This document shows, in pieces, positions 42,318-45,535 of a stretch of DNA of 64,000 nucleotides. The translations under genes and the position numbers were made by a program. The first letter of the stretch is position 1. Every line of letters starts with the position of its first letter. This stretch comes from an uncultured Candidatus Saccharibacteria bacterium. GTDB lineage: Bacteria > Patescibacteriota > Minisyncoccia > Phycocordibacterales > PALSA-1337. Below the pieces are notes generated by a model that worked only from the letters and a program-made list of their open reading frames with translations, ran no database searches and was not told the DNA's origin. The DNA is taken from positions 39,477 to 103,476 of the forward strand of contig CAZBVQ010000001.1 in NCBI GenBank assembly GCA_964495685.1, read 5' to 3'.

Positions 42318-43016
42318 TTGAACAGATATACTTTGTTCGATATGTATTCTAGGAATTATAAAAATAAAGCCATATCGCTTCGCGAACAGGGGTACTCTCT
42401 TGGATATATTGCCGAGAAGCTTGATGTTGCAAAAAGTACGCTAAGTGTATGGCTAAAGAGCGTTACATTTTTTCCGAATGAAATAACAAGGAACTCCGTA
42501 GCTCATGGTCAAAAACAGGCAGTTGCGACAAAACGTTCTGACAAAGCCATTTCTCTTGCCCGCGCGTATAAATACGCACAAGAATCAGTTGGCGTCTTGT
42601 CAAAAAGAGATAGGTTTCTCGTTGGAATTGGGATTTATATCGGGGAAGGTGGTAGGGCCTTTAATAGTACTAGAATAGCAAATTCTGATCCGCGTACCAT
42701 TGGGTTTTGCCTGTCGTGGCTCAAAGAATGTTTTGGTTTGATGAATAAAAATATTCGTATTAGAGTTCATATATACCCTGACAATAATGAGAAAAGAGTC
42801 TTAACATATTGGATGAAAGAACTTGGTTTGGGGAAGAAATCATTTTATCCCTGTTTTATTGATAGGAGAGTCGGTAAGAGATCGAAAAAAGTGAATGTAT
42901 TACCGTACGGGACTGCCCATATGAGTGTGGTCAGCAATGGTAACAAAGATTTTGGTGTCTTGTTACATCGTAAAATCCTTGCTACGATTGACCGTATTCT
43001 CACTATGCGGGGTTAG
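42318..43016 (+). CDS. HTH-domain protein with possible LAGLIDADG-like endonuclease fold
   Basis: N-terminal HTH (GYSLGYIAEKLDVAKSTLSVWLK). Central FLVGIGIYIGEGG weakly resembles a LAGLIDADG motif. The last 10 nt overlap the 5' end of tRNA-Gly(UCC). Confidence 0.4.
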   Translation: MNRYTLFDMYSRNYKNKAISLREQGYSLGYIAEKLDVAKSTLSVWLKSVTFFPNEITRNSVAHGQKQAVATKRSDKAISLARAYKYAQESVGVLSKRDRFLVGIGIYIGEGGRAFNSTRIANSDPRTIGFCLSWLKECFGLMNKNIRIRVHIYPDNNEKRVLTYWMKELGLGKKSFYPCFIDRRVGKRSKKVNVLPYGTAHMSVVSNGNKDFGVLLHRKILATIDRILTMRG

Positions 43017-43077: not shown

Positions 43078-43145
43078 CAACCAAGGCCGATGCGGATGGC
43101 TCAACAAGCGCGCTATTTCAGTCCGACACTCGGATCCGTCAAAAA

Positions 43146-43670
43146 ATGAAAAAAGAAGTATATAAAGATAGAAAATACGAGATCGTTTCATACGACCCTG
43201 AGTGGCCGAGACGATTTGAATTGTACGCTGACAAAGTCAGGAAAATCTTTGGTCCTGAAGTTCAAATAGAACACATTGGCAGCACTTCTGTGCCCGGCAT
43301 GTCTGGAAAACCATGTATTGATGTTCTCGTTGTGGTTGATATGAAAATCGTTGAGTCTCACACTCAAGAACTCTTAGCTGCTGGATTCGTTGATGCTGGT
43401 GAGTTTGTAATGAAAGGATCACACCTCTTTCGAGTTATGAATGGTCATGAGCCTATTGTTAACATTCATTTCTTTCCTCCTGGTCACTCGCATGTAGTTC
43501 AAATGATTGCAGTTAGGGACTTTCTTCGCTCGCATCCAGAGGAAGTCACTACGTACTCAAAAATTAAGGATGAATTATTCGTGAAATTTGCAGATGATTA
43601 TTCGGCTTATAGAGAAAATAAGGATAAGTATATGCATGAGCTTATTAAAAGGGCACTAGCTAAATCCTGA
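43146..43670 (+). CDS. GrpB/UPF0157 family nucleotidyltransferase-fold protein
   Basis: IEHIGSTSVPGMSGKPCIDVLVVV matches the GrpB signature. Confidence 0.7.
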   Translation: MKKEVYKDRKYEIVSYDPEWPRRFELYADKVRKIFGPEVQIEHIGSTSVPGMSGKPCIDVLVVVDMKIVESHTQELLAAGFVDAGEFVMKGSHLFRVMNGHEPIVNIHFFPPGHSHVVQMIAVRDFLRSHPEEVTTYSKIKDELFVKFADDYSAYRENKDKYMHELIKRALAKS

Positions 43671-43680
43671 TATAAAAAGA

Positions 43681-43900
43681 AACACCCCGAAGCCGAAGCT
43701 AAGGGGTGGAGCACTTTAATAACGTCATTGCTCGGGACCTGTCTACTGACGCAATGGAACCATGTGGTTCCGCCAACCGGTGAACAATGCATCGGGTGGT
43801 ACCTATCCCGATGGGACTGGAGTCATCATTCCCTTTGGCCAATCCGTCCTTGGGGAACTATCGCTGTCAAACAGTTAGGGTGCCGCGAACCGCAATCCCC
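43681..43900. other. GC-rich structured noncoding segment (candidate ncRNA or recombinase attachment region)
   Basis: GC content well above neighbours. No ORF. Terminal GGGG...CCCC complementarity. Internal hairpins GGAACC-ATGT-GGTTCC and CATCGGG-N10-CCCGATG. Sits between grpB and the 3' end of the serine recombinase. Confidence 0.25.
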
Positions 43901-44030
43901 AACCAAATCAATGTACTTTATTACTATACAAGTATAGCATGCCCATAAAATTTGTCAAGCAAAATTTCATTTTGTCCAGTATTATATAAATAATATGGCT
44001 CTGTTAGGCCATAAATGATAAGAATTAATA

Positions 44031-45386
44031 TTAATTGGTAATCGTGGATTTTTCTGAACATACATTTTCTAGTAGATTCAGTTTTTTATCCTTTAGAATT
44101 AGCCTACTCTTGATACACGACAACACCTCTCGTTTCTCTGTGAGCGTCCCATGCTGAAGTATGTACTTCGCAAAGGTCTTTATGTTGATGTCGTGTTGGT
44201 TCTTGATCTGGGGCAACTTTTTTTTGAGCACTCCAGTTTGGAATAGGGCATAGCGTGCCACTTCTTTCTCGAGTTTTTGCCTCAGTTCACTTTTGTCGAG
44301 GCTCATGCTGTCTATTATCTTCAGTGTCTCATCGATCAGTATCTGTTCGCTCACTTGATCATTATTACAATCGAGGTTTCGCAATTTTGTACATCGATAG
44401 AATACGTACGCTTTTACGCTTCCGTCTTTCAGTTCTTTAACCTTTTCTTCAGCTGTCACACCGGATTTGCAATAACCGCATTCAAGCATCCGAGTAAAGG
44501 CGAATTCTCGACCGTAAGCCTTTTTCTTTTCACCTAGAATTTTATCTTGCACGATATCGAATAGATCCTTCGTAATAATTGGTTCATGCTTACCTTGATA
44601 CCATTCTCCGCTTCCTCTTGGGTATTCAAATACGCCGTAATAGAAAGGCATTCTCAAAAGCCGGTAGATATTTCCGAGAGCTAAAGCCTTTCCGGTTCTC
44701 GTTGTGAAGCCGGAATCTTTGAGCCATCTGTAAATTTGTCTGCCAGACTGATTTTCATTCGCCACTTTCTCAAACATCTTCTTAATAATTGGTGCTCGAA
44801 TCGGATCTACGATGACTTGGCACTTTTCGTCCTTGTTTTTACTGTTCAGATAGCCAGTTAAGGCTAAGGAAGGTTTCAATCCCATCGCAGCCCTGGCTCT
44901 CAAGCCACGTCTTACGTTGATTACCTTGTTGTCGTTCTCGAGTTTTGCCTGACTTCCTAGGATCATCAGCAAGAACTTCTCATTTGGATTGTTCGTGAAT
45001 TTTTGACCGCCATAGGTTCTGATTTCTTTGAGCAACCCTTGATCCATGAGATCAACTATTTTGCCTAAGTCACCAGCATTTCGACTTATTCGATCCGGTG
45101 CCCATGTCAGAATGCCATCGAATCTACTTTTCTTTATATCCTCGATTATTTCGTTGAAGACCGGACGTTGCCCAGCTTCTTTGGCTGAATGAGACTCGCG
45201 TTTTGTAATAACGATCTCAAGATTTTCGGTAACCGCCATTTTTTGCATTTCAACTATCTGGGAATCGATAGAGAGCACCTGCCGATCCTCCTGCTCGGTG
45301 CTTTTACGAGCATACAAGCAGTATCTAACCTTTACTGGGCTTGATGGTTTGGCCGGAAGCCCGACTGGCCTTTGGGTAGTTTCCAT
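44031..45386 (-). CDS. large serine recombinase (resolvase/integrase family)
   Basis: N-terminal resolvase catalytic domain (YCLYARKSTEQEDRQVLSIDSQ with the nucleophile Ser), recombinase domain, Cys-containing zinc-ribbon region (CGYC...C..C) and coiled-coil C-terminus. 451 aa. Confidence 0.85.
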   Translation of the reverse strand: METTQRPVGLPAKPSSPVKVRYCLYARKSTEQEDRQVLSIDSQIVEMQKMAVTENLEIVITKRESHSAKEAGQRPVFNEIIEDIKKSRFDGILTWAPDRISRNAGDLGKIVDLMDQGLLKEIRTYGGQKFTNNPNEKFLLMILGSQAKLENDNKVINVRRGLRARAAMGLKPSLALTGYLNSKNKDEKCQVIVDPIRAPIIKKMFEKVANENQSGRQIYRWLKDSGFTTRTGKALALGNIYRLLRMPFYYGVFEYPRGSGEWYQGKHEPIITKDLFDIVQDKILGEKKKAYGREFAFTRMLECGYCKSGVTAEEKVKELKDGSVKAYVFYRCTKLRNLDCNNDQVSEQILIDETLKIIDSMSLDKSELRQKLEKEVARYALFQTGVLKKKLPQIKNQHDINIKTFAKYILQHGTLTEKREVLSCIKSRLILKDKKLNLLENVCSEKSTITN

Positions 45387-45535
45387 ACCTCAAGGAATGA
45401 CAGAACCCATCCGATGAGTCTAGGATCCGTCGGAGTTGATAAATTGTAGGTAACTCTCCTCGAGAATTATGCAGAAATGATGAAATATGCTTATACTTAT
45501 AGTATTAATCGTCAAAAATTAATCTTTTTAATAAC

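What the first reader, a model, noticed from the sequence alone, without database searches (positions are those of the whole stretch)
43681..43900. GC-rich, ORF-free structured segment between grpB and the serine recombinase
About 220 nt has markedly higher GC than the flanks, with terminal GGGG/CCCC complementarity and several perfect local stems (GGAACC-AUGU-GGUUCC and CAUCGGG-N10-CCCGAUG). In an AT-rich genome such islands are usually structural RNAs.

Alternatively it could be the attachment or crossover region used by the adjacent large serine recombinase, or a remnant of foreign DNA.
Basis: seen in the sequence. Interest (0 to 1): 0.5.

Follow-up and report, generated by a model that had tools for sequence, protein, structure and literature searches.

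The report
Unclassified pseudoknotted small RNA gene
The GC-rich stretch is a self-contained gene for a roughly 250-base folded non-coding RNA on the minus strand, conserved in a few related candidate-phyla bacteria and matching no described RNA family; it is not the recombinase's attachment site, and its function is unknown.

Summary

The segment is the body of a minus-strand transcription unit:
- a near-consensus sigma-70 promoter (TTGACA, 16 nt, TG-TATACT) at 43958-43931;
- an inferred start near 43924;
- an intrinsic terminator at 43708-43672.

I found homologues in six other distinct sequences from Patescibacteria metagenomes. None of them has the recombinase in the DNA held. They keep the promoter (except one 5'-truncated copy) and the terminator. 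They also keep a multi-helix fold that includes an H-type pseudoknot.
- 90.5% of pair cells are paired, against 34-47% for slid controls.
- 18 pairs show compensatory changes, against 2-6 in the controls.

No reading frame is conserved. There is no Rfam or ARAGORN match and no similar DNA in phages, plasmids or viral contigs.

The family has a short form (this window) and a long form with an extra, nearly invariant 5' domain of about 215 nt.

It is not an att site. Recombinase-associated conserved sequences lie elsewhere, at 43079-43101 and about 45400-45450.

Function is unknown. My best guess is a trans-acting, protein-binding structured RNA. The RNA family appears undescribed.

The parts
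43931..43958 (-). Sigma-70-type promoter: -35 TTGACA (43958-43953), 16-nt spacer, extended -10 TG-n-TATACT (-10 hexamer 43936-43931)
   Evidence: Matches 11 of 12 consensus positions and has the TG extension. The same promoter sits at the homologous position in L040, L068 and L059. It aligns across 6 of the 7 family members.
43905..43924 (-). Inferred transcription start (about 43924) and short 5' leader ending in the conserved AUUUGGUUG
   Evidence: The start is inferred from the promoter geometry and is not measured. The leader sequence is conserved with L068.
43873..43904 (-). P1 helix (GGUUGGGG, 43904-43897, pairing with CCCUAACU, 43880-43873) enclosing the small hairpin P1a (43894-43892 with 43883-43881)
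   Evidence: RNAalifold predicts it. Five of 10 pairs show changes on both sides and 90.5% of cells are paired.
43864..43874 (-). P2 hairpin CUGU-loop-ACAG, followed by the invariant junction CGAUAG (43863-43858)
   Evidence: The stem is invariant. The loop varies in sequence and in length, 3-5 nt. The stem therefore has no covariation evidence.
43814..43858 (-). H-type pseudoknot. P3 is GUUCCCC (43858-43852) with (A)GGGAAU (43834-43828). P4 is GGAUUGG (43845-43839) with CCAGUCC (43820-43814).
   Evidence: P4: 4 of 6 core pairs show double compensatory changes, for example GAUUGG/CCAGUC in the window against GGGUUA/UAACCC in L043, and 95% of cells are paired. P3: 2 pairs show double changes and 94% of cells are paired. 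G-U pairs in P3 and P4 fit only the minus strand.
43790..43813 (-).
   Evidence: Four of 7 pairs show double changes and 92% of cells are paired.
43756..43771 (-).
   Evidence: Other members carry different perfect hairpins in this region: GGGAGUC/GACUCCC in L069 and GGAAUC/GAUUCC in L059. The alignment is not reliable here, so pairs were not counted.
43709..43738 (-). 3' domain. P6' is GUC (43738-36) with GAC (43726-24). It crosses P7, which is GAGCA (43733-29) with UGCUC (43713-09). The conserved loop AAUGACG lies between them. This may be a second pseudoknot.
   Evidence: From a manual helix table. P7 changes to GAGUA/UGCUU, GAAC/GUUC and AUGA/UCAU in other members. P6' changes to GAU/GUC in L068. 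Support is weaker than for the 5' domain (helix 7: 82% paired in the MAFFT register).
43672..43708 (-). Intrinsic terminator: CACCCC-UUAGCUUCGGCUUC-GGGGUG (43708-43683) followed by UUUCUUUUUAU
   Evidence: Terminator scan. It is conserved in all 7 members with two double changes. The U-run lies only on the minus strand.
43997..44014 (-). Hairpin ATGGCCTAACAGAGCCAT upstream of the RNA promoter. It probably ends the recombinase transcript. It marks the last base of homology with the recombinase-less relatives.
   Evidence: Terminator-like site. Nucleotide homology with L040, L043 and L069 runs to about 44013 and then stops, 17 nt before the recombinase stop codon at 44031.

Best explanation
Positions about 43924 to 43675 on the minus strand are a stand-alone gene for a structured non-coding RNA of about 250 nt. 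The finding's coordinates cover its body.

Shown:
- It has its own strong sigma-70-type promoter and its own Rho-independent terminator.
- It folds into a conserved core: P1/P1a, P2, an H-type pseudoknot P3xP4, and P5. Variable hairpins follow, then a 3' domain (P6'/P7) that presents the conserved loop AAUGACG, then the terminator.
- It belongs to a small family seen so far in seven distinct sequences from Patescibacteria (Paceibacteria-like) assemblies.
- The family has a short architecture (this window, L068) and a long one with an extra 5' domain of about 215 nt. One further copy (L046) has lost its 5' end.
- It matches no Rfam family.

Inferred:
- The RNA acts in trans as a folded, probably protein-bound RNA (an RNP scaffold or a sequestering RNA). 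I do not think it is a cis-regulator or a plain antisense RNA.
- Reasons: it has no consistent downstream gene; its core junctions are invariant while its peripheral hairpins vary freely; and its promoter is near consensus.

It sits in a recombination-prone spot next to a tRNA cluster and a large serine recombinase, but it is not that enzyme's recombination site.
For: Transcription unit. The promoter matches 11 of 12 positions with a TG extension, and a terminator lies on the same strand. The same promoter is at the homologous place in L040, L068 and L059 (alignment).

Homologues. nhmmer E-values run from 1e-10 to 1e-55 in loci fetched through grpB relatives. Three more came from a metagenome motif scan. 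No recombinase is detectable in any of these loci.

Structure.
- 48 proposed pairs; 90.5% of cells are paired, against 34-47% when partners are slid by 1-3 columns.
- 18 pairs have changes on both sides, against 2-6 in the slid controls.
- 0 of 500 shuffles reach the observed values.
- RNAalifold independently finds P1, P3, P5 and the terminator.

Strand. There are 28 G-U cells on the minus strand. Only 10 would be G-U on the plus strand. The U-run and the promoter agree with the minus strand.

Not coding.
- The only shared peptide-like frame is broken by a 2-nt loop insertion in L040 and by a 1-nt indel in L069.
- The 'codon' that forms the P2 loop changes at all three positions.

Selection. 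The RNA is 84% identical to L046 (90% over the 218 nt that BLAST aligns), while the adjacent grpB is only 75% identical.

Not a known family.
- No Rfam hit at the gathering threshold or at E<=10, even on 271 nt alone, or for the long form.
- ARAGORN finds no tmRNA.
Against: - There is no expression data.
- Only seven distinct sequences were found, from related organisms, so the covariation statistics rest on few independent events.
- The tool's own caveat applies: related sequences can beat the shuffles without any structure. The slid-partner control is the stronger one here.
- The minimum-free-energy z-score on the minus strand is not significant (-0.95). The plus strand folds better in silico (-2.67).
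- The proposed pairs also score 85% on the opposite strand.
- P2 has no covariation. The support for P6'/P7 comes from a manual register.
- The functional statement (trans-acting, protein-binding) is inference only.
- In L059 and L068 a co-oriented gene starts 23-47 nt after the terminator, so a cis role in some genomes is not excluded.
Confidence: 0.8

Rival explanations
1. The segment is the attachment or crossover site (attL, attR or attP) used by the adjacent large serine recombinase.
For: It lies about 120 bp from the 3' end of the recombinase gene. Synteny with relatives breaks on that side. The RNA's 5' leader (TTTGGTTG) shares a 7-mer with the conserved end motif CCTTGGTTG. That motif abuts tRNA genes in other recombinase loci at a similar distance from the stop codon, 78-190 bp.
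Against: - The segment and its promoter are conserved in six loci with no recombinase in the DNA held.
- None of the 24 recombinase loci contains it, by blastn, nhmmer or covariance model.
- Its substitutions are compensatory within helices, which is not expected of a protein-binding DNA site.
- The sequences conserved across the recombinase family are elsewhere: next to tRNA-Gly at 43079-43101 and upstream of the recombinase start at about 45400-45450.
- Homology with recombinase-less relatives continues through the segment up to 44013.
Confidence: 0.03
2. It is a degraded or frameshifted protein-coding remnant, or it encodes a small protein.
For: Mechanical ORFs of 38-69 aa overlap it. A peptide-like string (GLE[ST]SFPLANPS[LF]GNYRC) recurs in + strand translations of five members.
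Against: - That string only reflects the nearly invariant nucleotides of the RNA core.
- The frame is broken by a stop and a 2-nt insertion in L040 and shifted by a 1-nt indel in L069.
- The P2-loop 'codon' reads Q, L, N, R or H.
- The minus-strand frames are full of stops.
- Variation is concentrated in helix-compensating positions.
Confidence: 0.03
3. It is a cis-acting element: a riboswitch-like leader, or a 3' antisense or UTR element that controls grpB.
For: It is directly adjacent to grpB in five of seven members and shares a two-way hairpin with the end of grpB. In L059 and L068 a co-oriented gene follows the terminator within 23-47 nt. Pseudoknotted cores are typical of aptamers (general knowledge).
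Against: - In five members the next gene downstream is convergent, so there is nothing to regulate in cis.
- The two co-oriented downstream genes are unrelated to each other; from their sequences they look like an isochorismatase-like and a HAD-like hydrolase, a reading I did not test.
- The transcript stops before the grpB coding region, so there is no antisense overlap.
- More distant grpB genes (58-62% identity) have no such element.
- The terminator is always intact and I saw no obvious competing anti-terminator.
Confidence: 0.07
4. It is a highly divergent member of a known housekeeping RNA class (RNase P RNA, 6S, SRP RNA, tmRNA, or an intron-containing tRNA) that Rfam models fail to recognise in this lineage.
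For: It is a stand-alone, strongly promoted gene near tRNA genes in a small genome, as such RNAs often are. Patescibacteria are known to hide RNA genes from standard tools, for example tRNA genes split by group I introns (PMC13011429, abstract seen). From memory, L043 carries AAGAUGAAUGACG, which resembles a conserved RNase P stretch.
Against: - No Rfam match at E<=10 with lax filters, for either the short or the long form.
- ARAGORN is negative.
- The 5' and 3' ends do not pair. That is unlike the closing stems of RNase P (P1), 6S and SRP RNA (general knowledge of those folds).
- I saw no tRNA-like exons and no order of helices like a group I P3-P7 core in the sequence.
- I could not check whether the same genome already has canonical rnpB, ffs, ssrA or ssrS genes.
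Confidence: 0.07

Closest known systems
Orphan structured bacterial ncRNAs found by comparative genomics (for example raiA motif RNA and OLE RNA; named from general knowledge)
   Same: It is a stand-alone gene, not a leader. It is GC-rich relative to its surroundings. It has several helices backed by covariation, including a pseudoknot. Its junction nucleotides are invariant and its peripheral stems vary. Its function is not evident from gene context.
   Different: There is no sequence or structure match to any of them in Rfam 15. Its known range is far narrower: seven sequences from one Patescibacteria lineage. It comes in two modular sizes. It lies in a tRNA-linked recombination hot spot.
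Classical sigma-70-promoted, Rho-independently terminated bacterial sRNA genes
   Same: It has a near-consensus promoter, a discrete length of about 250 nt, a GC-rich terminal hairpin with a U-run, and a conserved single-stranded stretch (AAUGACG) just upstream of the terminator that could act as a seed.
   Different: It is much more structured than typical base-pairing sRNAs: a pseudoknotted core of about 110 nt. No target or chaperone is known. Nothing about targets was tested.
tRNA and tmRNA genes as integration targets of genomic islands
   Same: It is a small structured-RNA gene lying directly beside an integrase-type gene. In relatives the same recombinase family sits beside tRNA 3' ends.
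   Different: The recombinase flanks the promoter (5') side of this RNA gene, not its 3' end. The RNA gene is intact in relatives without the recombinase. The family-wide recombinase end motif lies at tRNA-Gly (43079-43101), not at the RNA.

Membership tests
Any Rfam 15 family (RNase P, 6S, SRP, tmRNA, group I/II introns, riboswitches, T-box, OLE, raiA, ROOL/GOLLD, HEARO and others) | Score against the family covariance model at or near its gathering threshold | tested here: not met
   No hit at the gathering threshold in the 64 kb. At E<=10 the only hit inside the segment is a meaningless 21-nt SNORD52 match at 15.6 bits. No hit at all for the long form in L040.
tmRNA | tRNA-like acceptor/T-arm domain plus a tag-peptide reading frame | tested here: not met
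   ARAGORN reports only four tRNAs in the window and only tRNAs in the homologous loci.
Independent bacterial sRNA gene | Own promoter and own intrinsic terminator on the same strand, conserved with the RNA body | tested here: met
   for the promoter. for the terminator.
Independent bacterial sRNA gene | A discrete transcript detected experimentally | not testable with these tools
Structured (fold-constrained) RNA | Helices maintained by compensatory substitutions beyond control expectations | tested here: met
   18 pairs with double changes against 2-6 in slid controls, and 90.5% paired against 34-47%. Caveat: only 7 related sequences.
H-type pseudoknot | Two crossing helices, each supported by covariation | tested here: met
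   P3 (columns 61-67 with 88-94) and P4 (columns 78-83 with 102-107) cross. P4 has 4 of 6 pairs with double changes. P3 has 2.
Large-serine-recombinase att site | Occurs with the recombinase and is conserved among loci that carry related recombinases | tested here: not met
   Absent from 24 recombinase loci. Present in six loci with no recombinase in the DNA held.
Large-serine-recombinase att site | Site of strand exchange (a central dinucleotide flanked by imperfect inverted half-sites) | not testable with these tools
   This needs recombination assays or empty-site and occupied-site pairs from the same strain.
Riboswitch or cis-regulatory leader | Lies upstream of, and co-oriented with, a functionally consistent set of genes | tested here: not met
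   The downstream gene is convergent grpB in 5 of 7 members. In L059 and L068 it is one of two unrelated co-oriented genes, which I read without testing as isochorismatase-like and HAD-like.
Protein-coding gene or pseudogene | A conserved reading frame with mostly synonymous variation | tested here: not met
   Six-frame translations of all 7 members.

The most novel reading that the evidence does not exclude
This is a previously undescribed family of pseudoknotted non-coding RNA specific to Patescibacteria. It exists in a core-only form of about 250 nt and a two-domain form of about 460 nt. It travels, sometimes together with the GrpB nucleotidyltransferase gene, as exchangeable cargo at tRNA-linked serine-recombinase hot spots. 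It would then be a new RNP component or ribozyme of these reduced-genome bacteria, and its spread would be tied to a compact recombinase element that targets tRNA flanks.
Probability: 0.3. Interest if true: 0.7.

Novelty: new variant of a known kind. Interest (0 to 1): 0.5.

Why it matters
Candidate-phyla-radiation bacteria have tiny genomes and very few recognised non-coding RNAs beyond the universal ones. A strongly promoted RNA held in shape by covariation, with a pseudoknot and a modular second domain, is a concrete new object for structural and functional RNA work in these bacteria: probing, partner pull-downs, cryo-EM.

Its position also matters for annotation. It lies between a tRNA cluster and a widespread serine recombinase that sits beside many different tRNA genes. 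Genome annotators may otherwise mistake such RNA genes for att sites or for 'foreign' DNA. The region is a useful entry point for studying how mobile DNA reshuffles these genomes.

If the family stays small and lineage-restricted, it is a modest addition to the catalogue of orphan RNAs.

Tried and rejected
1. Rfam, three ways: whole window at gathering thresholds, 1.4 kb at E<=10, and 271 nt at E<=10. Also the long form in L040. Nothing relevant.
2. ARAGORN for tmRNA or tRNA-like genes. Nothing in the segment.
3. blastn 'distant' against phage and plasmid collections. Only chance 26-34-nt matches, or none.
4. Four viral-contig motif scans. The hits were chance matches with no nhmmer support.
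5. Linkage to the recombinase. 24 recombinase loci were searched by blastn, nhmmer and a covariance model. No copy was found.
6. Obligate linkage to grpB. It holds only for close grpB relatives plus L069. grpB genes at 58-62% identity have other neighbours and no RNA.
7. A displaced 5' domain or a second copy in the window, which would indicate integration into the RNA gene. None was found.
8. A second-end motif (TCTAACCAnCAGCGT, seen in L002 and L003) in the window. None was found.
9. A remnant of the recombinase gene in recombinase-less relatives. None is significant.
10. C/D-box or K-turn reading of GGGAAUGAUGA. Rejected because UGAUGA is not conserved in the family.
11. T-box reading of GGGUGGUACC on the + strand. 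Rejected because it lies in the variable P5 loop and there is no Rfam T-box hit.
12. Five literature searches for a described Patescibacteria RNA of this kind or for this recombinase element. Nothing relevant came up, beyond a paper on group I introns in Patescibacteria tRNA genes.

Full report
**1. Observation**

The segment 43681-43900 is 55% GC. Its 220-nt flanks are 36% and 28% GC. Only 4% of all 220-nt windows in the 64 kb are as GC-rich. The window overall is 45.8% GC, so the contrast is local and the genome is not strongly AT-rich.

- GGAACC-AUGU-GGUUCC at 43756-43771;
- CAUCGGG-N10-CCCGAUG at 43790-43813.

The ORF at 43146-43670 (+) is GrpB (Pfam E = 8e-40). The ORF at 44031-45386 (-) has Resolvase and Recombinase domains. 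It is distantly CcrB/XisF-like.

**2. It is a transcription unit on the minus strand**

The consensus scan found two signals on the minus strand:
- a promoter TTGACA, 16 nt, TG-TATACT at 43958-43931, matching 11 of 12 positions;
- a GC-rich hairpin, CACCCC...GGGGUG at 43708-43683, followed by UUUCUUUUU.

On the plus strand the hairpin has no U-run after it. Together these define an RNA of about 250 nt running from about 43924 to about 43675.

**3. Relatives**

The recombinase route found no copy of the segment. Homologues of the recombinase (57-76% identity) were fetched from 24 Patescibacteria MAG loci. None contains the segment by blastn, nhmmer or covariance model.

The grpB route succeeded. 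The exact GrpB protein occurs on contigs identical to the window. GrpB relatives at 77-88% identity lie in loci that share part of the window's left-hand synteny: all keep tRNA-Gly(tcc) then GrpB, and L040 keeps the whole run from PolyA_pol through the tRNA array and UPF0102. In L040 and L046 the genes that follow are HU, RNase Y and ClpP, with no recombinase. In all of these loci the segment is present directly after grpB, with nhmmer E-values from 1e-55 to 1e-10.

I then scanned metagenome contigs with an 18-base motif taken from the conserved core. Three more true members came back, L069, L059 and L068. L059 and L068 have no grpB next to the RNA.

That makes seven distinct sequences. A covariance model of the core (R1) finds exactly these and nothing else in 388 kb of related loci.

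**4. Structure**

The seven sequences align well over the first 110 nt or so and over the last 60 nt or so. RNAalifold recovers P1, P3, P5 and the terminator. By inspection I added P2, a crossing helix P4 and a 3' helix P7.

On alignment A3 the full 48-pair model scores as follows:

| Measure | Model | Partners slid 1-3 columns |
|---|---|---|
| Cells paired | 90.5% | 34-47% |
| Pairs with changes on both sides | 18 | 2-6 |
| Shuffles (of 500) reaching the observed value: % paired, double changes, covariation score | 0 | - |
| Shuffles (of 500) reaching the observed number of further pair types | 43 | - |

The clearest case is P4. It reads GAUUGG/CCAGUC in the window and GGGUUA/UAACCC in L043, which is four doubly compensated pairs. 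P4 crosses P3 (UUCCC/GGGAA), so the two form an H-type pseudoknot.

A manual helix table suggests a second crossing pair near the 3' end, P6' and P7, around the conserved loop AAUGACG. This part is less secure.

Strand. The model contains 28 G-U cells on the minus strand. Only 10 cells would be G-U on the plus strand. That agrees with the promoter and the terminator.

Energy alone does not show the structure. The z-score is -0.95 on the minus strand and -2.67 on the plus strand.

Each run pairs locally, one in the terminator and one in P1.

**5. Not coding**

Six-frame translations of all members show one recurring peptide-like string on the plus strand. It coincides with the invariant RNA core. 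The frame is interrupted by a stop and a 2-nt loop insertion in L040 and by a 1-nt indel in L069. The triplet that forms the P2 loop reads Q, L, N, R or H.

**6. Two architectures**

I aligned the upstream regions. In L043, L040, L069 and L059 the same promoter lies about 225 nt further upstream. An additional, almost invariant domain of about 215 nt sits between the promoter and the core.

In the window and in L068 the promoter is joined almost directly to the core. L046 has lost the promoter and the 5' strand of P1.

The extra domain has no Rfam match and does not occur anywhere in the window. Its few substitutions are mostly non-synonymous in the one long frame I read by eye. They include one compensated pair, GAGAC/GUCUC changing to UAGAC/GUCUA. 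It is therefore RNA, not protein.

**7. Relation to the recombinase**

Nucleotide homology between the window and the recombinase-less relatives runs from grpB through the RNA and its promoter, as far as the hairpin at 43997-44014. It stops 17 nt before the recombinase stop codon. HU, RNase Y and ClpP are not in the window.

The recombinase family has its own conserved flanking sequences:
- a motif (A/G)GGCCTCCGCRTCnnCCTTGGTTG that directly abuts the 3' end of whichever tRNA gene is downstream;
- a block of about 70 nt just upstream of the start codon.

In the window these lie at 43079-43101, next to tRNA-Gly(tcc), and at about 45400-45450. They therefore bracket grpB, the RNA and the recombinase.

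L002, L008 and L010 share the window's left-hand synteny. They have the recombinase beside the same tRNA-Gly, but without grpB or the RNA.

The tRNA-side motif is also present in the recombinase-less L043 and L046.

The phylogenies of grpB and the RNA disagree:

| Comparison | grpB nt identity | RNA nt identity |
|---|---|---|
| Window vs L040 | 88% | 63% |
| Window vs L046 | 75% | 84% |

My inference is that this tRNA-Gly flank is a recombination hot spot, and that grpB and the RNA gene behave as exchangeable cargo there. I did not resolve the history. Either way, the GC-rich segment itself is not the crossover site.

**8. What it is and how it probably works**

Shown:
- It is a conserved RNA gene with its own promoter and terminator.
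- Its fold is constrained by covariation and includes a pseudoknot.

Inferred:
- It acts in trans, most likely as a protein-bound structured RNA.
- Reasons: no consistent downstream gene (convergent grpB in five members, unrelated co-oriented genes in two); invariant junctions (CAGCGAUAG, AAUGACG) with freely varying peripheral hairpins; a near-consensus promoter.

A cis-regulatory role, a ribozyme, or a very divergent housekeeping RNA cannot be excluded with these tools.

**9. Comparison with known families**

No Rfam 15 family matches. ARAGORN is negative. There is no similar DNA in the phage, plasmid or viral-contig collections. Literature searches found no description of it.

In kind it resembles the orphan structured ncRNAs found by comparative genomics. 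It is a new family of that general kind, and function is unassigned.

**10. Verdict**

The att-site and pseudogene alternatives are rejected.
- Confidence that this is a genuine structured ncRNA gene: about 0.8.
- Confidence in any specific function: low.
- Interest: moderate (0.5). It is a credible new RNA family in an under-explored phylum. It has an unusual two-form architecture and sits in a mobile-DNA context. So far it is narrow in range and has no functional handle.

Noticed in passing
window 44031-45386 (-), 43079-43101 and about 45400-45450; loci L001-L023: The serine recombinase belongs to a family present at 57-76% identity in more than 20 Patescibacteria MAGs. It is nearly always convergent with a tRNA gene, and the tRNA differs between loci (Gly, Arg, Met, Glu, Leu, Lys, Gln, Ser). 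A conserved motif of about 23 nt (..GGCCTCCGCRTCnnCCTTGGTTG) abuts the tRNA 3' end. A conserved block of about 70 nt precedes every recombinase start. This looks like a compact serine-recombinase element that targets tRNA flanks. I found no description of it in my literature searches.
   Followed up: partly
L023 5724-5956 and 8389-8621; L002 4294-4422 and 6205-6333; L001 4503-4576 and 9354-9426: Some recombinase loci carry long direct repeats of the element end: 233 nt at 93% identity in L023 and 129 nt at 87% in L002. The repeats bracket the recombinase and/or one to two cargo ORFs, as if elements or cassettes had accumulated in tandem. L001 has two inverted copies of tRNA-Arg(tct), one on either side of the recombinase.
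   Followed up: partly
window 43079-43145; L043 about 2732-2800; L046 about 804-870: The recombinase-type end motif (CAACCAAGGCCGATGCGGATGGC..) follows tRNA-Gly(tcc) even in relatives that have no recombinase nearby. The other three tRNA genes of the window lack it. It may be a relic of an earlier integration.
   Followed up: partly
L040 5787-6003 (-); L043 3585-3802 (-); L069 3741-3957 (+); L059 932-1149 (+): The long form of the RNA has an extra 5' domain of about 215 nt that is almost invariant between genomes whose core domains differ by about 30%. It contains GGCUUAAACGAAAGCGUAAC. From memory this resembles the L11/GTPase-centre region of 23S rRNA. That is an untested lead, and there is no Rfam hit.
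   Followed up: partly
window 43146-43916 compared with L040, L043 and L046: Adjacent genes have discordant relationships. The window's grpB is closest to L040 and L043 (87-88% nt identity). Its RNA is closest to L046 (84%) and only 63% identical to L040 and L043. PolyA_pol is closer to L002, L008 and L010 (70-73% aa) than to L040 (64%). The locus looks mosaic.
   Followed up: partly
window 42318-43016 (+): A 232-aa ORF with no Pfam match lies between tRNA-Pro and tRNA-Gly and overlaps the first bases of tRNA-Gly. It has an HTH-like N-terminus and a LAGLIDADG-like 'LVGIGIYIGEGG' stretch. It is present in L010 (52% identity) but absent from the otherwise syntenic L008. It may be a free-standing gene of the homing-endonuclease type.
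   Followed up: no
L046 1600-1640 and upstream: The L046 copy of the RNA is 90% identical to the window over the 218 nt that BLAST aligns. It lacks the promoter and the 5' strand of P1, which are replaced by unrelated AT-rich sequence. It is probably a recently truncated, inactive copy.
   Followed up: no
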